The notes under the pieces: model-generated
The model's database searches: none
Told to the model about the DNA's origin: nothing
What the model saw: the letters and a program-made list of their open reading frames with translations, nothing else
Origin: a bacterium
GTDB taxonomy: Bacteria > Patescibacteriota > Minisyncoccia > Phycocordibacterales > CAIZIN01
Length of the DNA stretch: 64,000 bases
Direction of reading: 5' to 3'
Assembly: GCA_037131675.1 (NCBI GenBank)
Contig: JBAXQO010000001.1
Span: 25,795 to 89,794, forward strand
Shown: positions 25,144-37,000 of the stretch, one piece after another
Position numbering within the stretch: the stretch's first letter is position 1
How the letters are laid out: each line of letters starts with the position of its first letter
Position numbers and translations under genes: made by a program

Positions 25144-26943
25144 TTACTCCAACACCGCTTTTATACGTCTGACACCTTGAGCAACAGCCTCTTCTTTAGC
25201 AATTTTGAAATGCCCAAGTTCTGAAGTATTCTTCACGTGAGGACCACCACAAAATTCTTTTGAATATGCATCCTCGATTGATTCTCCAATATAGTACACA
25301 GAAACTACATCTCCGTATTTATCCCCAAAGAAATGCAATGCCCCTGTCTTTAGAGCTTCTTCTTTTGGAAGTTCAATACGGGTTACAGGTAATGCTGCAT
25401 TGATTTTTTCATTCACAATGTCTTCAACTTTTTTCTTTTCTTCATCAGTCATTTTTTGAGTATGTGTAAAGTCGAAGCGTAGTCTTTCAGGTGTAATATT
25501 TGAACCTTTTTGAGACACGTGAACACCGAGTACTTCACGAAGTGCTTGGTGAAGCAAGTGTGTTGTTGTGTGGTATTTTATAGAAATTTCACTCGTGTCC
25601 CCCATTCCACCTTTAAATTTTTGTTCAGCACCGACTCGTGAAAGCTCTTGGTGTTTTTTGAATTCTTCCTGGTAGCCACAATCATCTACTTTGATTCCCT
25701 TTTCTTTTGCCAACTCTTGAGTAAGCTCTAACGGAAAACCAAAAGTTGAAAATAATATAAAAGCATCTTTTCCAGATATATTTCTATCTGAAAGTTTCTC
25801 AAATTGTTTCAATCCGTCTTTAAGGGTTTTTCTAAACTTCTCTTCTTCCTTATTTATTTCATCAATTATTATTTCAGATTTATCTGAAACGTTTTTATAT
25901 ATATCTTTATATGTCTCTATAGCTTGTTTTGAAATTTCCGAAAGAGAGTTTCCTTTAATACCTAAAATATCAGCATATCTTACGGCACGACGGATTATTC
26001 TACGAAGTACATATCCCTGGTCTCCATTTGAAGGAACAACCCCATCTGAAATTAACATGGTCGCTGTGCGAATATGGTCAGCAACAATCCTTTTGGCTCG
26101 TAAGTTTTCGTTTGTAGAAAGTTCCCCTATTTTTGAAAATATTTTTTGGAATATGTCTGTATCAAAAATATTATTCTTGCCCTGAAGCACCATAGTCACT
26201 CTTTCAAAACCAGAACCAGTGTCCACATTTTTCTGAGAAAGCTCGCTCACAACTTTTCCATCTTTCTTAAGATACTGCATGAAAACATCATTCCAAATTT
26301 CCACAACCTGTTGAGCGTCATCCGCAGCCACAAATTCTTCATGAGTTAAACCTTTTGTTAATTCTCCGTAGACATCGTAATACATTTCTGTATCCGGACC
26401 ACAAGGACCGTTTTCTCCAGGACTCCACCAATTTTTTGATGCCGGTAGAAAGAAAATTCGATTTCCTGTTACATTATTTTTTTCAAAGATTTCACGCCAG
26501 ATATTTGCAGACTCTTCGTCTTTTGGTGCGTTTTCATCACCCTCAAAACATGTAACGTAAAGTTTCTGGGGATCCAATCCAAAGCCATCTTCTTTAGACG
26601 TTAAAAGTTCATAACTCCAATTAATAGCTTCTTTTTTAAAATAATCTCCAAGGGACCAGTTTCCCACCATTTCAAAAAAAGTCGCATGAGTATTGTCCCC
26701 AATTTCATCAAGATCTCCTGTGCGGACACATTTTTGAATATTTGCCAAACGTGTGCCTAGGGGATGTTTTTCACCCAACAAGTACGGAACAAGAGGTTGC
26801 ATACCGGCAGTATTAAAAAGCACAGAAGGGTCATTTTCTGGGATAAGAGAAGCGGAAGGAACAATGGCGTGTCCACGCTTTTCAAAAAATGCTAAAAATC
26901 GCTTTCGTATTTCTGTTGAGTTCATTAGATAGTAATTTATCAT
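25144..26943 (-). CDS. alaS: Alanyl-tRNA synthetase, short form lacking C-Ala domain
   Basis: N-terminal FLAFFEKRGHAIVPSASLIP...NTAGMQP; editing-domain HTTTHLLH and CGGPHV zinc motif. Only 599 aa. Confidence 0.85.
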   Translation of the reverse strand: MINYYLMNSTEIRKRFLAFFEKRGHAIVPSASLIPENDPSVLFNTAGMQPLVPYLLGEKHPLGTRLANIQKCVRTGDLDEIGDNTHATFFEMVGNWSLGDYFKKEAINWSYELLTSKEDGFGLDPQKLYVTCFEGDENAPKDEESANIWREIFEKNNVTGNRIFFLPASKNWWSPGENGPCGPDTEMYYDVYGELTKGLTHEEFVAADDAQQVVEIWNDVFMQYLKKDGKVVSELSQKNVDTGSGFERVTMVLQGKNNIFDTDIFQKIFSKIGELSTNENLRAKRIVADHIRTATMLISDGVVPSNGDQGYVLRRIIRRAVRYADILGIKGNSLSEISKQAIETYKDIYKNVSDKSEIIIDEINKEEEKFRKTLKDGLKQFEKLSDRNISGKDAFILFSTFGFPLELTQELAKEKGIKVDDCGYQEEFKKHQELSRVGAEQKFKGGMGDTSEISIKYHTTTHLLHQALREVLGVHVSQKGSNITPERLRFDFTHTQKMTDEEKKKVEDIVNEKINAALPVTRIELPKEEALKTGALHFFGDKYGDVVSVYYIGESIEDAYSKEFCGGPHVKNTSELGHFKIAKEEAVAQGVRRIKAVLE

Positions 26944-32820: not shown

Positions 32821-35800
32821 TTACCCTTTGACCACTATGTTGATAAGCCTAGTTGGAACAAATACCACCTTAATAATCTCCTTCCCCTCAATCCACTTGA
32901 ATATGTCTAAATTATCTTTCAAACTCTCAAAAGCCTCTTTTTCTTCAATTGTCCTAGAAACCTTCATCTCTCCACGTAATTTACCGTTAACCTGAACCAC
33001 GATGGTCACAATATCGCTTTCAAGTTTCTTGGGGTCATATTTTGGCCATACAACTTCATGAATCGATTTTTTGTTCCCTAACGATCTCCACAACTCTTCC
33101 GACATATGGGGTGCAAATGGAGCTAGAATTTGGAGAAACTTTTCAAAATGACTTTTGTATACGGCTGGAGAATTATCCATCTCGTTAACTAAAATCATCA
33201 TGGCAGAAATGGCGGTGTTGAAATTAAATGACTCAATATCCTCTCCAACTTTTTTTATTGTCTTATTGAGAGTCTGCTCGTATGAATAAACGACTTTTTT
33301 ATCTTCAGAAATTTTTTCCTGTATTCTCCAAACTTTTTCAATAAACCTACGAGAACCAATTATTCCATCTGTAGACCAAGGCAACTGTGAATCAAATGGA
33401 CCAATGAACATTTCAAAAACTCTAAGTGTGTCTGCTCCATATGTTGCAACCACCTCATCTGGATTTACCACATTCCCCCATCTTTTTGACATCTTTCTGT
33501 TATCAGAACCGAGAATCATACCTTGGTTGCGAAGCGCCTTGAAAGGTTCTTTCATTGGTACGAGTTTTAAATCAAATAGGAACTTATGCCAGAAACGAGA
33601 ATACAAGAGATGTCCTGTTGCATGCTCCGCACCGCCCACATACATATCTACCTGTTTCCAATATTTTAAAGTTTTTTCACTTGCGAATTTTGAATTGTTA
33701 AGAGGGTCCATATAACGCAAGAAATACCAAGATGAACCTGCCCACCCAGGCATTGTGTTTGTTTCATATCCATTCTTCACCCAATCCTTCACACCAGCAA
33801 GTGGAGATTCTCCAGTACCTATTGGTTCATATGATTTAACATTTGGAAGTGTGAGTGGTAGTTCTTTTTCTTTAAGAGATTTTATTGTTCCGTCTTTTTC
33901 GTGAACCAATGGAATGGGCTCACCCCAATATCGCTGACGAGCAAAAATAGCATCGCGCATTTTATATTTTGTCACTAATTTTCCGCCCACAGCTTTTGTG
34001 ATTTCTTCTCTGGCTTTTTCAGAAGATAAAGCATTAAATTTTTCTGAATTTGAAAGCACACCATCGTCCGTATACGCACTCACACCTTTAATAACTCTGT
34101 CGAGCCAAACGTCCATCTCGGCATGACACATAAATGTAGTGTTTAGGCTTCTTTGATCTATCCACAAAATTTCATTTTCTTCTTGCTCTTCTTTAGAGAT
34201 TTCTTTTCTCTCATCTCCATCCAGTTCAAAATACACAAGACTTGTGAACGAAACCCTGTTTTGGTCTTTATGTTTTGCAAAATACTCCGCACGCACTTGC
34301 CCACCTAAAATTTTTGCATTTGTTAAGTTTGTGTAACCCGTTTCTTCCAAAACCTCTCTTTTTGCTGCATCAATCAAATCTTCTCCTTCATTTACTCCGC
34401 CCATTGGAAACGTATTCCAATGATGTTTTTTTGAATGCAAACATAAATATTTTCCAGTCTTAACATTCTTAACCATCGCCTGAACATTCTGTCTCTCAAC
34501 TTTTTGTTTACCTGCAACTGGTGGATTTCTTTTATCAATTCGCTCAGGAATAATAACTTCTTTTACTGGCAATTTATGTTTCTTGGCAAATTCCCAGTCT
34601 CTCTCATCATGTGCAGGTACAGCCATCACAGCACCTGTTCCATATGATGCAAGCACATAATCTGCAATCCACACAGGAACTTCTTCATTATTTACCGGAT
34701 TAATTGCATATATACTTTTTAGTTCAACTCCCGTTTTCCCCTTGCTTCCAACACGATCTTCTTCTGTTTTATTTTTTACTTCCTCAATATATTTCAAAAC
34801 CTCATTTTTATTTGAGACAAAAGTTAAAAGTTTTTGCACCAATTCATGTTCTGGAGCAAGCACAACGTAGGTCACACCAAAAAGCGTGTCAGCCCGTGTT
34901 GTGAATACTTTTATTTTTTCTCCTATTCCTTTAATTAAAAATTCAATTTCTGAACCTTCGCTTTTTCCAATCCAGTTTTTTTGAATTTCCTTGATATGTG
35001 AAGACCAATCTAAATCTGTTAAATCTTCAATGAGTCTATCTGCATATGCAGTGATACGTAAAAACCATTGCCGCAAAGATTTCTTTACTACAGAATACCC
35101 GCCACGTTCAGACACAGGTTTACCGTCTGGTCCGTCAACAATTTCATCGTTTGCAAGTACAGTGCCGAGCTCGGGACACCAGTTCACCTCACTGAAACCT
35201 TCGTAAGCCAAACGGTATTTCATCAAAAACTTATCGTGCGCAAGCTTATCCATATTCTTCCATTCTTTCGCAGTTATTATTGGAGTATCTAGATCGGCGG
35301 CAGCACTTACTTTTTCATTACCGTTTTTTTCTAAAATTTTAACAAGAGTTTCTATTGGCTCCGCTTTGTTTTTTGCAGTGTTATACCATGAATTGTAAAG
35401 CTTAAGAAAAATCCACTGAGTCCATTTATAATATTTTGGATCAGTTGTATTTATTTTTCTAGACCAATCATATGAAAATCCAATTTTATGGAGTTGCCCT
35501 TCAAAAGTCTTAACATTTTCCTCAACAGCTTTTCGAGGATGGATTTTGTGTTGAATGGCATATTGTTCGGCAGGCAAACCAAAAGCATCATAACCCATCG
35601 GATGAAGAACATTAAATCCTTTTACGCGCATGAGACGTGCGTACACATCACTTGCAATGTAGCCCCGTGGGTGCCCAACATGAAGACCTTGTCCAGAAGG
35701 ATACGGGAACATGTCTAATACATATTTCTTTGGTTTTTTGGTTGAAGACGCAGTTTTGTATATACCTTTTTTCTCCCACTCTTTCTGCCATTTGGATTCA

Positions 35801-35838
35801 ATCTTCTTATGGTCGTAAGCTTTAACTTTTTGTTTCAT
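32821..35838 (-). CDS. leuS: Leucyl-tRNA synthetase with an embedded Nudix hydrolase domain (~residues 440-585)
   Basis: MFPYPSGQGLHVGHPRGY HIGH region, CP1 editing domain (GTGAVMAVPAHDERDWEFA), KMSKR. Extra ~150-aa insert after CP1 with Nudix box GGVNEGEDLIDAAKREVLEETGY. Total 1005 aa. Confidence 0.9.
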   Translation of the reverse strand: MKQKVKAYDHKKIESKWQKEWEKKGIYKTASSTKKPKKYVLDMFPYPSGQGLHVGHPRGYIASDVYARLMRVKGFNVLHPMGYDAFGLPAEQYAIQHKIHPRKAVEENVKTFEGQLHKIGFSYDWSRKINTTDPKYYKWTQWIFLKLYNSWYNTAKNKAEPIETLVKILEKNGNEKVSAAADLDTPIITAKEWKNMDKLAHDKFLMKYRLAYEGFSEVNWCPELGTVLANDEIVDGPDGKPVSERGGYSVVKKSLRQWFLRITAYADRLIEDLTDLDWSSHIKEIQKNWIGKSEGSEIEFLIKGIGEKIKVFTTRADTLFGVTYVVLAPEHELVQKLLTFVSNKNEVLKYIEEVKNKTEEDRVGSKGKTGVELKSIYAINPVNNEEVPVWIADYVLASYGTGAVMAVPAHDERDWEFAKKHKLPVKEVIIPERIDKRNPPVAGKQKVERQNVQAMVKNVKTGKYLCLHSKKHHWNTFPMGGVNEGEDLIDAAKREVLEETGYTNLTNAKILGGQVRAEYFAKHKDQNRVSFTSLVYFELDGDERKEISKEEQEENEILWIDQRSLNTTFMCHAEMDVWLDRVIKGVSAYTDDGVLSNSEKFNALSSEKAREEITKAVGGKLVTKYKMRDAIFARQRYWGEPIPLVHEKDGTIKSLKEKELPLTLPNVKSYEPIGTGESPLAGVKDWVKNGYETNTMPGWAGSSWYFLRYMDPLNNSKFASEKTLKYWKQVDMYVGGAEHATGHLLYSRFWHKFLFDLKLVPMKEPFKALRNQGMILGSDNRKMSKRWGNVVNPDEVVATYGADTLRVFEMFIGPFDSQLPWSTDGIIGSRRFIEKVWRIQEKISEDKKVVYSYEQTLNKTIKKVGEDIESFNFNTAISAMMILVNEMDNSPAVYKSHFEKFLQILAPFAPHMSEELWRSLGNKKSIHEVVWPKYDPKKLESDIVTIVVQVNGKLRGEMKVSRTIEEKEAFESLKDNLDIFKWIEGKEIIKVVFVPTRLINIVVKG

Positions 35839-36385
35839 CTCTTTCGCTCTTTAAATTAAATTTTTTAATCGCAATCCAAAATAATACTACCAGTGCCACA
35901 CCGAGTATAAATACTTTAATCAGATCGTCCGCACGGCTCCAGTATCGAATAGAGGCTATTAGGAAGTCTAGAACGGCACCAACAGATAGAGCTATTGAAA
36001 GTACTTCAAAATTTACAAGAAATAGACTTGCACCAAAAGTGATAACACCCAACACTACAAGCGTAACGAACACATTTCGATCATATACCTTGCTTGCTTC
36101 CTGATATTTTTGATTACATGAAAATGATTGATCACAATATCCTGATGGTTCGCCAACTTTGGTAGGTTTTGGAAGTTCTGTCCATGCACCACCAGATGTC
36201 ACGCATTGATCCTGGGTCTCGGGCGCCATATTTATTTGTTTTACAGGACAAAAGACATTGTAATCAGGAGAAGAAAACACAAGAGAAAGTGTGTAATTAT
36301 AGAAAAGATTGAGCACTATGACGATTCCAATAATCAGAGACCATCTGAGTATTTTAGGTGAGCGAAATGCTGGTGTGTTTTCCAT
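35822..36385 (-). CDS. Hypothetical membrane protein
   Basis: Multiple predicted TM helices. No motif. Confidence 0.4.
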   Translation of the reverse strand: MENTPAFRSPKILRWSLIIGIVIVLNLFYNYTLSLVFSSPDYNVFCPVKQINMAPETQDQCVTSGGAWTELPKPTKVGEPSGYCDQSFSCNQKYQEASKVYDRNVFVTLVVLGVITFGASLFLVNFEVLSIALSVGAVLDFLIASIRYWSRADDLIKVFILGVALVVLFWIAIKKFNLKSERDETKS

Positions 36386-36448: not shown

Positions 36449-37000
36449 TTAATTTTCCTTGAGTAATCCTAGCTCTTGTCTAAATTCTTCCAAAAGAGCT
36501 TTACTCGTAAGTCTTTTTTCTACCACTTCAAAAACCGAATCATAAAACCACTTCACTTCTTCAAAACTTTTAAAATGAATACCCCAATGCCCAACACCTG
36601 TCTCCAAAATATCTTCACGAATAGATACCAGGTTATGAATTTTATCAGCCGTCGCCAACATTAAAGCTTCCTCGGATGCACTTTCTAGCCGGTTAATGTA
36701 TTTTTCTTTTCTGTCTTTCCAATCAAGGTTGGATTTCTCAGTGACCTCACTTACTATGTTTGCAACTCTCTCACCAAAATCCCTAACTATGTCTGAATAT
36801 TCATACCCTTCAGTGTCTTCTAACACATCATGAAGTAGAGCTGCCACTATTACATCTTCATCTTTTGTTTGTTCAGATAAAAGCCAGGCAACTGAAAAAG
36901 GATGCACAATATATGGGAGATTATTTACTTTGCGCGTTTGACTCCTGTGTTGATGTGTAGCAACATAAATTGCTTTTTGAATTTTTGGATTAAGAAGCAT
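36449..37000 (-). CDS. HD-domain phosphohydrolase, RelA/SpoT-hydrolase-like (small alarmone hydrolase-like)
   Basis: YIVHPFSVA...AALLHDVLEDT HD motif arrangement as in (p)ppGpp hydrolase domains. Confidence 0.6.
   Translation of the reverse strand: MLLNPKIQKAIYVATHQHRSQTRKVNNLPYIVHPFSVAWLLSEQTKDEDVIVAALLHDVLEDTEGYEYSDIVRDFGERVANIVSEVTEKSNLDWKDRKEKYINRLESASEEALMLATADKIHNLVSIREDILETGVGHWGIHFKSFEEVKWFYDSVFEVVEKRLTSKALLEEFRQELGLLKEN

What the first reader, a model, noticed from the sequence alone, without database searches (positions are those of the whole stretch)
34084..34521. Nudix hydrolase domain embedded inside leucyl-tRNA synthetase
LeuRS is 1005 aa. After the CP1 editing domain (…[21 protein letters not shown]) comes a ~150-aa insert with a canonical Nudix box GGVNEGEDLIDAAKREVLEETGY (G-x5-E-x7-REVxEETG), before the enzyme resumes. 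A pyrophosphohydrolase module inside an aaRS could hydrolyse (mis)aminoacyl-adenylates, Ap4A or related dinucleotides formed by the synthetase. I am not aware of a described bacterial LeuRS-Nudix fusion.
Basis: partly seen in the sequence, partly recalled or inferred. Interest (0 to 1): 0.7.

Follow-up and report, generated by a model that had tools for sequence, protein, structure and literature searches.

The report
Nudix hydrolase nested inside leucyl-tRNA synthetase
A complete, apparently active Nudix pyrophosphatase domain is spliced into a surface loop of the proofreading domain of an otherwise normal leucyl-tRNA synthetase; this design is widespread in Patescibacteria (CPR bacteria) but I found no paper describing it, and free-living copies of the same Nudix family tend to sit next to tRNA-synthetase genes.

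Summary
The 1005-aa LeuRS (window 32821-35838, minus strand) carries a 158-aa insert (aa 430-587). The insert passes Pfam NUDIX at more than twice the gathering score, folds as a Nudix domain (pLDDT 95.8) and has a canonical Nudix box. It lies inside the C-terminal part of the CP1 editing domain, not after it, replacing a 13-aa loop of Thermus LeuRS. LeuRS synthetic and editing motifs are intact.

It is neither a one-off nor a chimera. The identical protein occurs in four independent assemblies. 105 of 120 closest LeuRS relatives have a Nudix at the same site, with catalytic residues kept in 102-106 of 106 site-430 inserts. At least 289 matches occur in GTDB species genomes. The insert has been lost repeatedly. 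Relatives carry further nested enzymes: Ham1/ITPase, HAD, alpha/beta-hydrolase, ASCH, extra Nudix.

The insert belongs to a distinct Nudix subfamily that also exists as ~160-aa free genes. Five of eight sampled free genes lie directly next to an aaRS gene (leuS three times, argS/ileS, thrS).

Best reading: an autonomous nucleotide-polyphosphate hydrolase tied genetically to aaRSs. Ap4A-type by-products are the leading substrate, damaged NTPs the main alternative. Aminoacyl-adenylate hydrolysis is unlikely. The substrate is untested. I found no literature on this architecture.

The parts
32821..35838 (-). leuS ORF, 1005 aa including stop: bacterial-type leucyl-tRNA synthetase with a nested Nudix domain
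   Evidence: ORF list. TIGR00396 939.9 bits against a cut-off of 548.4. Pfam tRNA-synt_1, tRNA-synt_1_2, NUDIX and Anticodon_1. Best PDB match is T. thermophilus LeuRS, E 1e-184. Full-length AF2 model pLDDT 86.4, pTM 0.75.
35671..35682 (-). HVGH (HIGH) class I signature, aa 53-56
   Evidence: Invariant in 120 of 120 relatives. Coordinates verified.
35215..35391 (-). Extra ~58-aa ordered segment (aa 150-208) absent from T. thermophilus LeuRS
   Evidence: In the alignment, query 149 aligns to Tth 145 and query 209 to Tth 147. No Pfam hit (protein 10). Modelled with pLDDT 86-96.
34552..34980 (-). CP1 editing domain, N-terminal part (aa 287-429), with the TTRADT motif (34885-34902) and the [15 protein letters not shown] motif (AHDERD at 34597-34614)
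   Evidence: Pfam PF13603 aa 287-436 matches model positions 1-147 of 185. In the TTRxDT and AHDxRD motifs the T, R, D, A and H residues are invariant in 120 of 120 relatives.
34078..34551 (-). Nested Nudix domain, aa 430-587 (158 aa)
34492..34494 (-). R449, conserved Arg on the first long strand of the Nudix domain
   Evidence: Arg in 102 of 105 inserts. It aligns to the Arg of the YRxNVG motif in E. coli RppH and in lupin Ap4A hydrolase.
34333..34401 (-). Nudix box GGVNEGEDLIDAAKREVLEETGY, aa 480-502 (G-x5-E-x7-R-E-U-x-E-E-x-G-U)
   Evidence: Sequence. G480 106/106, E486 102, R494 102, E495 105, E498 104, E499 105, G501 105 of 106.
34255..34284 (-). Subfamily signature YFAKHKDQNR, aa 519-528: aromatic pair at +17/+18 after the box, then K524, N527 and R528. 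Presumed substrate-binding region.
   Evidence: F/Y519 100 of 105, F/Y520 92, K524 102, N527 103, R528 97 of 105. Y519 aligns to a Tyr of human NUDT2. The same motif is shared by free-standing family members.
33964..34077 (-). CP1 C-terminal part resuming after the insert (aa 588-625, AYTDDGVLSNS...), leading back to RQRYWG (33922-33939)
   Evidence: Query 588 onwards aligns to Tth 376 onwards. RQRYWG is invariant in 120 of 120.
33481..33495 (-). KMSKR (KMSKS) class I signature, aa 782-786. The leucine-specific domain that precedes it in Thermus is absent.
   Evidence: M, K and R are invariant, S is kept in 119 of 120, and the first position is K in 116 and R in 4. Query 778-783 spans Tth 580-638.
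32938..33273 (-). Anticodon-binding domain, aa 856-967
   Evidence: Pfam PF08264, 87.4 bits.

Best explanation
The gene encodes one polypeptide with three active sites: the LeuRS aminoacylation site, the CP1 editing site, and a catalytically competent Nudix pyrophosphohydrolase nested in a surface loop of CP1.

Shown:
- The Nudix module is a complete, well-folded domain joined by short, ordered junctions.
- Its metal-binding and catalytic residues are under strong purifying selection, while the rest of the insert evolves faster than the LeuRS core.
- It belongs to a distinct Nudix subfamily (signature R449, the Nudix box, [FY][FY]xxHKxxNR, W559). This subfamily occurs both embedded in LeuRS and as ~160-aa free genes.
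- The LeuRS motifs are all intact.
- The insert has been lost repeatedly.

Inferred:
- The Nudix site works as an independent enzyme on small diffusible nucleoside-polyphosphate substrates. It is not a step in leucylation or editing.
- Fusion to leuS, or adjacency to it, serves co-expression with tRNA synthetases.
- The most likely substrates are the adenylylated by-products that aaRSs make from aminoacyl-AMP plus NTP, that is Ap4A and related ApnN, cleaved asymmetrically to AMP plus NTP. Possibly the corresponding Np4-capped or 5'-triphosphate ends are also substrates. This rests on three points: the nearest characterised relatives are Ap4A/ApnA hydrolases and RppH; the subfamily is genetically linked to class I and class II aaRS genes; and aaRSs are the classical cellular source of Ap4A.
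- The closest alternative is a broader role cleaning up non-canonical NTPs. Current evidence cannot separate the two.
For: Domain reality and activity:
- Pfam 48-53 bits against a gathering score of 21.1.
- Catalytic residues are kept in 102-106 of 106 site-430 inserts, whose median identity to the query is only 37%.

LeuRS intact:
- HVGH, KMSKR, TTRxDT, AHDxRD and RQRYWG are invariant or nearly so in 120 relatives.

Ordered junctions:
- Full-length model blocks 421-440 and 581-600 have pLDDT 87-92.

Widespread:
- 105 of 120 closest LeuRS have a Nudix at the same site.
- 289 confirmed matches in GTDB species genomes. 73 of the 80 loci listed have the box inside a LeuRS-sized ORF, and in 69 of them it lies 70-71 aa after the AHD motif.
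- 177 cluster representatives at E <= 1e-30.

Distinct subfamily:
- The family HMM gives 160-193 bits to members and 24-42 bits to other Nudix proteins, including the window's two free Nudix genes.
- Free ~160-aa proteins align end to end with the insert.

Autonomy:
- Insert-less LeuRS are nested among insert-bearing ones. P0088, P0090 and P0103 are 89-91% identical in the core to insert-bearing sisters, against 75-83% to the next relative.
- No LeuRS core column tracks presence or absence of the insert.
- The same family is also nested in an M17 aminopeptidase.

aaRS linkage:
- Free members lie directly upstream of insert-less leuS in L085 and L091.
- One lies upstream of an insert-bearing leuS, one between argS and an IleRS-type gene, and one upstream of thrS. 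That is 5 of 8 sampled loci.

Ap4A/RppH-like affinity:
- The top profile hits among PDB sequences are lupin and Aquifex Ap4A hydrolases.
- RppH models are matched by 42 of 47 inserts.
- RppH, Ndx1 Ap6A hydrolase and CT771 are among the top structural neighbours.
- R449 and Y519 align to conserved residues of RppH, lupin Ap4A hydrolase and NUDT2.
- aaRSs make Ap4A/ApnN and Nudix enzymes (RppH/NudH, NUDT2) degrade it (PMC7705103).
Against: - No substrate was tested.
- All named-family scores are far below ortholog cut-offs, for example RppH 30.8 against 116.
- Three of eight free members sit next to fpg/mutM, an AlkB-like oxygenase or another Nudix. A CP1-fragment+Nudix protein sits in a CYTH/deoxyribosyltransferase/kinase block. 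Other LeuRS carry Ham1/ITPase and HAD inserts. All of this fits general nucleotide sanitation as well as, or better than, Ap4A clearance.
- The three leuS adjacencies could be historical residue of fission or fusion rather than functional coupling.
- Two recently insert-less LeuRS have no family member within 10 kb.
Confidence: 0.45

Rival explanations
1. General house-cleaning enzyme with an incidental host. The Nudix domain sanitises the nucleotide pool (oxidised, deaminated or otherwise non-canonical (d)NTPs, in the manner of MutT, NudI or NUDT15). It sits in LeuRS only because the solvent-exposed CP1 loops tolerate insertions, and because streamlined Patescibacteria genomes tend to nest small enzymes in essential genes.
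For: - Other LeuRS of the clade carry Ham1/ITPase, HAD, alpha/beta-hydrolase, ASCH and extra Nudix inserts at four hot spots.
- An IleRS-type enzyme carries His_Phos_1, and an M17 peptidase carries two GNAT domains plus this Nudix.
- Free members lie next to fpg/mutM and an AlkB-like oxygenase.
- Free members and the CP1-fragment+Nudix protein lie in dUTPase/thymidylate-kinase/CYTH/deoxyribosyltransferase blocks.
- The insert has been lost repeatedly, and no co-adapted LeuRS surface is visible.
- NudI, MutT-like proteins and NUDT15 are among the structural neighbours.
Against: - It does not explain why 5 of 8 free members are immediately next to aaRS genes of both classes.
- MutT and NudI family models are matched less consistently than RppH models: 13-16 against 42 of 47 inserts.
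- The genome already has two other free Nudix genes.
Confidence: 0.25
2. RNA- or tRNA-end-directed enzyme. Placed on CP1, which handles the tRNA acceptor end, the RppH-like domain removes pyrophosphate or a cap-like group from RNA 5' ends (pppRNA, Np4-capped RNA, leaderless tRNA). Alternatively it trims a blocking pyrophosphate from the tRNA 3' end, coupling RNA-end repair or decay to aminoacylation.
For: - RppH is the most consistently matched named family and is prominent among structural neighbours.
- All four insertion hot spots are in or beside CP1.
- tRNA is a feature common to the aaRS neighbours (Leu, Arg/Ile, Thr).
- ASCH (an RNA-binding fold) and phosphatase domains are co-inserted in relatives.
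- An HD_4 (RelA/SpoT-hydrolase-type) gene lies two genes upstream of leuS.
Against: - Scores to RppH are about a quarter of the ortholog cut-off.
- The free-standing form works without any aaRS scaffold.
- The insert has been lost repeatedly.
- There is no evidence on where the Nudix site points.
- tRNA 5' ends are normally monophosphates after RNase P (general knowledge).
Confidence: 0.13
3. Extra proofreading step. The Nudix site hydrolyses non-cognate or excess aminoacyl-adenylates (pre-transfer editing) released by the synthetic site.
For: - Physical fusion to an editing aaRS.
- Linkage of free members to leuS, ileS and thrS, which are all editing synthetases.
Against: - Aminoacyl-AMP lacks the pyrophosphate bond that Nudix enzymes cleave. 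Known aminoacyl-adenylate hydrolases are HIT-family proteins or the aaRS itself (my own knowledge of the families).
- The CP1 post-transfer editing motifs are fully intact, so no editing deficit needs compensating.
- The insert has been lost repeatedly.
Confidence: 0.05
4. Non-catalytic module: a nucleotide-sensing or purely structural domain that has kept the fold but regulates LeuRS allosterically.
For: - Catalytically dead Nudix folds that bind Ap4A exist, for example CF Im25/NUDT21 (PMC7705103).
- The junctions to CP1 are short and ordered.
Against: - Every catalytic and metal-binding residue of the Nudix box is conserved in 102-106 of 106 site-430 inserts at ~37% median identity. That is not expected for a binding-only domain.
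- Free-standing members keep the box too.
- The insert has been lost repeatedly.
Confidence: 0.04

Closest known systems
Nudix RppH/NudH and asymmetric ApnA hydrolases (E. coli RppH, lupin and Aquifex Ap4A hydrolases, T. thermophilus Ndx1, human NUDT2)
   Same: - Nudix fold and a full Nudix box.
- An Arg on strand 1 that aligns to the YRxNVG motif.
- An aromatic residue ~17 aa after the box, followed by basic residues.
- These are the best sequence-profile hits and are among the best structural hits.
   Different: - Scores are far below ortholog thresholds (30.8 against 116 bits).
- It has its own signature, [FY][FY]xxHKxxNR plus W559.
- It is nested inside LeuRS.
- The substrate is unknown.
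E. faecalis MutT/nudix family protein, PDB 2azw
   Different: - Only 13-14% identity.
- Free-standing.
- Listed only as a MutT/nudix family protein with no named substrate, so it gives no functional transfer.
Canonical bacterial LeuRS (T. thermophilus 1h3n, E. coli 4aq7 family; TIGR00396)
   Same: - Full-length homology (E 1e-184).
- HIGH and KMSKS motifs, the CP1 T-rich and AHD motifs, and the anticodon-binding and C-terminal domains are all present.
   Different: - A 158-aa Nudix domain replaces a 13-aa CP1 loop.
- An extra 58-aa segment at aa 150-208.
- The leucine-specific domain is absent.
Other aaRSs with an embedded or appended catalytic domain, e.g. NCBIfam NF040702 'isoleucine--tRNA ligase, N-acetyltransferase domain-containing'
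   Same: An essential class Ia synthetase hosts an unrelated small enzyme domain. NF040702 shows that such an architecture has been curated for IleRS.
   Different: - A different guest domain (GNAT rather than Nudix) and a different host.
- NCBIfam returned no LeuRS-with-Nudix model. The protein matches only the plain leuS model, and NCBI records name it 'class I tRNA ligase family protein'.

Membership tests
Nudix hydrolase superfamily (PF00293) | Pfam NUDIX score at or above the gathering threshold | tested here: met
   48.3 bits in the whole protein and 53.0 bits for the insert alone, against 21.1.
Nudix hydrolase superfamily (PF00293) | Nudix box G-x5-E-x7-R-E-U-x-E-E-x-G-U with the catalytic Glu residues | tested here: met
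   GGVNEGEDLIDAAKREVLEETGY at aa 480-502. The residues are conserved in 102-106 of 106 homologous inserts.
Nudix hydrolase superfamily (PF00293) | Alpha/beta/alpha Nudix fold | tested here: met
Nudix hydrolase superfamily (PF00293) | Divalent-cation-dependent hydrolysis of a nucleoside diphosphate linked to X | not testable with these tools
   Requires an enzyme assay.
Bacterial leucyl-tRNA synthetase (TIGR00396 leuS_bact) | Equivalog model score above the curated cut-off | tested here: met
   939.9 bits against 548.4.
Bacterial leucyl-tRNA synthetase (TIGR00396 leuS_bact) | HIGH and KMSKS class I motifs, and the CP1 editing motifs (T-rich region, conserved Asp) | tested here: met
   HVGH at aa 53-56, KMSKR at 782-786, TTRADT at 313-318 and AHDERD at 409-414. 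All are invariant or nearly so in 120 relatives.
RNA pyrophosphohydrolase RppH (NF001934-NF001938; TIGR02705 for BsRppH/YtkD) | Equivalog model score above the curated cut-off | tested here: not met
   The best score is 30.8-31.0 bits against 116. TIGR02705 gives 24.3-24.5 against 154.4. RppH is the most frequently matched family (42 of 47 inserts), but always below threshold.
Asymmetric Nudix Ap4A hydrolases | Aromatic residue (Tyr) 16-18 residues after the Nudix box and flanking basic residues that bind the polyphosphate (a criterion recalled from the Nudix literature, not re-read here) | tested here: inconclusive
   F/Y at +17 in 100 of 105 inserts and at +18 in 92 of 105. K524 and R528 are conserved. 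Y519 aligns to a Tyr of NUDT2. However, Phe is as common as Tyr, and the criterion is not exclusive to this family.
Asymmetric Nudix Ap4A hydrolases | Ap4A cleaved to AMP + ATP | not testable with these tools
   Requires an enzyme assay.
MutT 8-oxo-dGTPase (TIGR00586 / NF008044) | Equivalog model score above the cut-off | tested here: not met
   14.7 against 97.9 bits, and 16.3 against 148 bits. Only 12-13 of 47 inserts match at E <= 0.001.
Intein or other self-splicing/mobile insertion | Hint/intein or homing-endonuclease domain in the insert | tested here: not met
   Pfam finds only NUDIX in the insert. The model is a compact Nudix fold over all 158 residues.
Known anti-phage defence components (PADLOC) | Significant match to a defence-system model | tested here: not met
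   The only hit is a 21-bit match to PDC-S07 for the insert, and there is none for the free-standing P0139.

The most novel reading that the evidence does not exclude
The nested Nudix, together with the HAD, histidine-phosphatase, ASCH, alpha/beta-hydrolase and Ham1 modules nested in the editing domains of related class Ia synthetases, acts on the tRNA itself. In this reading CP1 delivers the acceptor end to an extra hydrolytic site that removes blocking or aberrant groups (pyrophosphate or cap-like adducts at the 5' or 3' end). Patescibacteria would then have built tRNA-end repair or quality control directly into their synthetases. That would be a previously unknown layer of aaRS proofreading, beyond amino-acid editing.
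Probability: 0.1. Interest if true: 0.9.

Novelty: new variant of a known kind. Interest (0 to 1): 0.62.

Why it matters
- aaRS domain accretion is usually described as a eukaryotic theme involving non-catalytic appendages. Here a bacterial radiation with tiny genomes has nested a complete second enzyme inside the editing domain of an essential synthetase. Its relatives use the same loops for at least five other enzyme families.
- If the Nudix clears Ap4A-type products, it would be a direct physical and genetic coupling between the main cellular source of dinucleoside polyphosphates and their degradation. It could also be the Ap4A hydrolase of organisms that may lack ApaH or YqeK; this was not checked.
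- It defines an 'aaRS-associated' Nudix subfamily with a clear signature that can be assayed.
- It gives natural, repeatedly tolerated insertion points in CP1 that could be useful for protein engineering.
- It flags hundreds of database entries currently named only 'class I tRNA ligase family protein'.

Tried and rejected
- **Insert-only word-indexed homology search.** It found a single fragment. This was a sensitivity limit, not rarity, as the full-length and exhaustive searches showed.
- **Locus search with the 47-sequence alignment.** It failed for lack of a conserved stretch. I repeated it with 8 close sequences.
- **Assembly chimera.** Rejected: the identical protein occurs in four datasets.
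- **Spurious motif or normal LeuRS sub-domain.** Rejected.
- **Intein or mobile element.** Rejected: the insert contains only a Nudix fold.
- **Defence system.** Rejected.
- **Search for a co-adapted LeuRS docking surface.** I compared insert-bearing and insert-less sequences. No discriminating column appeared, but with only 14 insert-less sequences the power is low.
- **Does an insert-less LeuRS always keep a free copy next door?** True in L085 and L091. False for P0103 and P0090 within 10 kb in any frame. The rest of those genomes could not be searched.
- **Were all insert-less forms created by simple deletion?** Uncertain. Five share a short linker (SGGDISxK...), which in my recollection resembles the canonical Firmicutes-type loop. 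Allelic replacement is therefore as plausible as deletion.
- **Distance between the Nudix site and the LeuRS sites.** Not obtainable, because model coordinates are not returned.
- **Literature.** Six searches found no description of a LeuRS-Nudix architecture. A 2026 survey of domain insertions treats the LeuRS editing domain only as an inserted module, never as a host (PMC13114784).
Full report
**1. What is in the sequence**

The finding's coordinates lie in one ORF on the minus strand, 32821-35838, which encodes 1005 aa. Translating 34084-34521 on the minus strand reproduces the quoted peptide with GGVNEGEDLIDAAKREVLEETGY.

- Pfam finds the class I synthetase core, the LeuRS editing domain (PF13603), the anticodon-binding domain and NUDIX. 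PF00293 scores 48.3 bits in context and 53.0 bits alone, against a gathering score of 21.1.
- NCBIfam identifies the host as bacterial LeuRS: TIGR00396 scores 939.9 bits against 548.4.
- Against T. thermophilus LeuRS (1h3n), query 209-429 matches Tth 147-362 and query 588-778 matches Tth 376-580. So 158 residues (aa 430-587, window 34078-34551) replace a 13-residue loop.
- The Pfam editing model is cut at position 147 of 185 and resumes after the insert. The Nudix is therefore nested within CP1, not placed after it.
- The same alignment shows an extra ~58 aa at 150-208 and no leucine-specific domain.
- The identical protein is encoded in four independent assemblies, so it is not a chimera.

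**2. Is the Nudix domain functional?**

- An AlphaFold model of the insert, built on 47 diverse homologues, is very confident (pLDDT 95.8, pTM 0.88).
- It matches only Nudix enzymes.
- I aligned the 120 best LeuRS relatives and extracted the insert. Across the 106 inserts at this site, G480 is kept in 106, E486 in 102, R494 in 102, E495 in 105, E498 in 104, E499 in 105 and G501 in 105.
- The median identity of the inserts to the query is only 37%, against about 60% for the whole proteins. This pattern indicates selection on catalysis.
- Further conserved positions define a subfamily signature: R449, F/Y519, F/Y520, K524, N527, R528 and W559.
- The LeuRS motifs HVGH, KMSKR, TTRxDT, AHDxRD and RQRYWG are invariant or nearly so in all 120. 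The host is a working synthetase with an intact editing site.
- In the full-length model (pLDDT 86.4, pTM 0.75) the Nudix region and both junction blocks have pLDDT of about 87-94. The domain is modelled as ordered with short junctions. Coordinates are not returned, so I could not measure where its active site points.

**3. Distribution**

- Of the 120 closest LeuRS, 105 have a Nudix at exactly this site, 14 have an 8-32 aa linker, and one (P0073) has a different, unidentified 125-aa domain there.
- The sources name these proteins as Patescibacteria or Paceibacterota MAG proteins, 'class I tRNA ligase family protein' or 'leucyl-tRNA synthetase'.
- A pattern scan of one genome per GTDB species confirmed 289 stretches that encode a relative. 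The 80 loci listed come from Paceibacterota and from Yonath-, Kaiser-, Taylor-, Wildermuth-, Wolfe-, Yanofsky- and Kerfeldbacteria.
- In 73 of those 80 loci the box lies in a LeuRS-sized ORF. In 69 of them it lies 70-71 aa after the AHD editing motif.
- An exhaustive profile search of 1.84 billion cluster representatives gave 177 hits at E <= 1e-30. Of the top 149 retrieved, 109 contain a LeuRS core.

**4. Turnover and autonomy**

- In a neighbour-joining tree of the LeuRS core with insert columns removed, the insert-less proteins are scattered among insert-bearing ones.
- This is robust for several pairs. P0088 is 91% identical to insert-bearing P0009 (next best 82%). P0090 is 90% identical to P0055 (next 83%). 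P0103 is 89% identical to P0102 (next 75%). The same holds for the N-terminal, CP1 and C-terminal parts separately.
- The module has therefore been lost, or swapped out, several times at shallow depth, so LeuRS does not need it.
- No LeuRS core column distinguishes the two states. That gives no sign of a co-adapted docking surface, although the power of this test is low.
- Five insert-less proteins share a short SGGDISxK-type linker, so allelic replacement may be involved rather than simple deletion.

**5. LeuRS as a landing pad**

Relatives carry additional inserts at three further hot spots, at query positions ~306, ~598 and ~647. Pfam confirmed the following:

| Domain | Relative(s) | Score or size |
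|---|---|---|
| Second or third NUDIX | P0003, P0110, P0096 | 35-66 bits |
| Ham1/ITPase | P0067 | 44.7 bits |
| HAD | P0075 | 25.8 bits |
| Alpha/beta-hydrolase | P0031 | 37 bits |
| ASCH | P0096 | 39 bits |
| Unidentified domain | P0039 (P0073 carries a similar one at the 430 site) | 124-125 aa, no Pfam hit (P0039 scanned) |

- P0003 is 96% identical to the window protein but has an extra 139-aa Nudix-like domain at position ~598.
- The same Nudix subfamily is nested, with two GNAT domains, in an M17 leucyl aminopeptidase, P0262.
- An IleRS-type enzyme in L092 carries a His_Phos_1 domain.
- The other large proteins in this window are ordinary.

**6. Free-standing members and their neighbours**

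About 20 of the top hits are 154-207-aa proteins that start with Met and align end to end with the insert, signature included. A family HMM scores members at 160-193 bits and other Nudix proteins at 24-42 bits, including the window's own two free Nudix genes at 59557-59988 and 62066-62695.

Contexts of eight free members:

| Member | Neighbourhood |
|---|---|
| P0273 | same strand, ~580 bp upstream of an 807-aa insert-less LeuRS; downstream synteny matches the window (sigma-r4/HARE-HTH, DUF8128, YceG) |
| P0183 | 3 bp upstream of an insert-less LeuRS |
| P0139 | 2 bp upstream of a 951-aa LeuRS that also has the insert |
| P0200 | between argS and the IleRS-type gene, in a block with dUTPase, thymidylate kinase and three other Nudix genes |
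| P0230 | 49 bp upstream of a gene with the ThrRS N-terminal editing region (tRNA_SAD) and the RDHRKLGKELDLF motif |
| P0164 | 5 bp after fpg/mutM |
| P0277 | 13 bp after an AlkB-like oxygenase gene |
| P0169 | beside another Nudix gene |

- So 5 of 8 are adjacent to an aaRS gene.
- As a rough guide, assume ~20 aaRS genes among ~800 genes, which gives a random gene about a 5% chance of such adjacency. This is my own estimate, and P0139 and P0273 are not independent.
- A 273-aa CP1-fragment+Nudix protein (P0220, seen on 11 contigs) lies among CYTH, deoxyribosyltransferase-like and nucleotide-kinase genes.
- Two recently insert-less LeuRS (P0103, P0090) have no family member within 10 kb in any frame.
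- By pairwise similarity, some free members are closest to LeuRS inserts and others form free-only groups. This suggests several transitions between free and embedded states.

**7. Which Nudix?**

- A profile of the inserts finds lupin (45.2 bits) and Aquifex (44.0 bits) Ap4A hydrolases first among PDB sequences, but the list declines smoothly.
- Foldseek puts 2azw, E. coli RppH, Ndx1 Ap6A hydrolase and CT771 near the top.
- RppH models are matched by 42 of 47 inserts but at about a quarter of the ortholog cut-off.
- R449 aligns to the YRxNVG arginine of RppH and lupin Ap4A hydrolase, and Y519 aligns to a tyrosine of NUDT2.
- The domain is therefore RppH/ApnA-hydrolase-like. It is not a member of any named orthologous family, and sequence and structure do not fix the substrate.

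**8. Interpretation**

- Shown: a real, conserved, catalytically equipped Nudix domain nested in CP1 of a functional LeuRS. It is ancestral to a large Patescibacteria clade, dispensable, and part of a subfamily genetically linked to aaRS genes.
- Inferred: it acts as an independent hydrolase on diffusible nucleoside polyphosphates, and fusion or adjacency provides co-expression with synthetases.
- Ap4A/ApnN are the leading candidates. aaRSs make them from aminoacyl-AMP plus NTP, and Nudix enzymes of the RppH/NudH and NUDT2 type degrade them (PMC7705103).
- The Ham1 and HAD co-inserts and the fpg, AlkB, dUTPase and CYTH neighbourhoods argue for a broader nucleotide-sanitation role. The present data cannot separate the two.
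- An RNA- or tRNA-end function is possible and would be the most novel outcome.
- Aminoacyl-adenylate hydrolysis is chemically unlikely for a Nudix enzyme.

**9. Novelty**

- Six full-text searches found no description of a LeuRS-Nudix architecture.
- A 2026 survey of domain insertions lists the LeuRS editing domain as an insertion-only module with no instance of acting as host (PMC13114784). The proteins described here do exactly that.
- NCBIfam has a curated model for an IleRS with a GNAT domain (NF040702) but returned nothing equivalent for LeuRS.
- I rate this a new variant of known kinds (aaRS with an accessory domain; Nudix hydrolase). It is of above-average interest, mainly because of its breadth, the multi-enzyme nesting in CP1 and the aaRS-linked Nudix subfamily. 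The function remains untested.

Noticed in passing
Relatives P0031, P0039, P0056, P0067, P0075, P0096, P0110 and P0063, at positions equivalent to window LeuRS aa ~306 and ~647: LeuRS of related Patescibacteria carry extra nested domains at other hot spots: Ham1/ITPase, HAD, alpha/beta-hydrolase, ASCH, and second or third Nudix domains. An unidentified 124-125-aa domain occurs at site 306 in P0039 and at site 430 in P0073.
   Followed up: partly
P0003 (1144 aa) compared with window LeuRS aa ~598 (window ~34045): A protein 96% identical to the window LeuRS has an additional 139-aa Nudix-like domain (FGGGVEKDEDIYGATIRELSEELEI) between LSNS and the following segment. P0004, P0006 and P0017 have it too. 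So the window gene appears to have recently lost a second Nudix.
   Followed up: partly
P0262 (1318 aa, from the exhaustive search): An M17 leucyl aminopeptidase with two GNAT acetyltransferase domains and a Nudix of this same subfamily nested in it. This is another essential-type enzyme used as a host, and by coincidence or not it is also a leucine enzyme.
   Followed up: partly
L092:6094-9648: A 1184-aa IleRS-type class I synthetase (DUF5915 C-terminus) with a histidine-phosphatase (His_Phos_1, 106.8 bits) domain inserted at aa 523-675. It is flanked by Nudix genes, argS, and dUTPase and thymidylate-kinase genes.
   Followed up: partly
P0220 and L096:3063-3884 (also P0232, P0247, P0252, P0249): A family of ~275-aa proteins made of a partial LeuRS CP1 fragment plus this Nudix. 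P0220 is seen on 11 contigs, in a block with two CYTH triphosphatase genes, a nucleoside deoxyribosyltransferase-like gene and a nucleotide kinase gene. It looks like an escaped piece of the fused LeuRS.
   Followed up: partly
window 58957-62695 (minus strand): A run of small genes: DUF5069, a 143-aa Nudix, a nucleoside 2-deoxyribosyltransferase-like protein (below the Pfam cut-off), two unannotated ORFs (247 and 107 aa), a 197-aa alpha/beta-hydrolase, and a 209-aa Nudix. These are the same kinds of small enzymes that are nested in LeuRS in other lineages.
   Followed up: partly
window 35215-35391 (LeuRS aa 150-208) and aa 778-783: The LeuRS has an ordered 58-aa segment with no Pfam match that T. 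thermophilus LeuRS lacks. It also lacks the leucine-specific domain (Tth 581-637).
   Followed up: no
window 36449-37000 (minus strand): A 183-aa HD_4/HD protein (RelA/SpoT-hydrolase-type, small-alarmone-hydrolase-like) lies two genes upstream of leuS. The arrangement EngB - cyclophilin - HD_4 - membrane protein - leuS is conserved in the other assemblies.
   Followed up: no
window 35822-35838: The leuS start codon overlaps the end of the upstream 187-aa predicted membrane-protein ORF (35822-36385) by 17 nt. This suggests translational coupling.
   Followed up: no
window 25147-26943 (minus strand): The AlaRS is only 599 aa: catalytic core plus tRNA_SAD, with no long C-terminal domain detected.
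   Followed up: no
window 58302-58358 (plus strand): A weak, partial tRNA match (30.8 bits against a gathering score of 29; model positions 9-63). The other three tRNAs in the window score 55-59 bits.
   Followed up: no
Insert-less relatives P0028, P0041, P0059, P0088 and P0121, at the site equivalent to aa 430-587: Five insert-less LeuRS from different parts of the tree share a similar short linker (SGGD/NISxKxF/Y). In my recollection this resembles the canonical Firmicutes-type loop. It hints that the insert may be removed by recombination with an insert-less allele rather than by deletion.
   Followed up: partly
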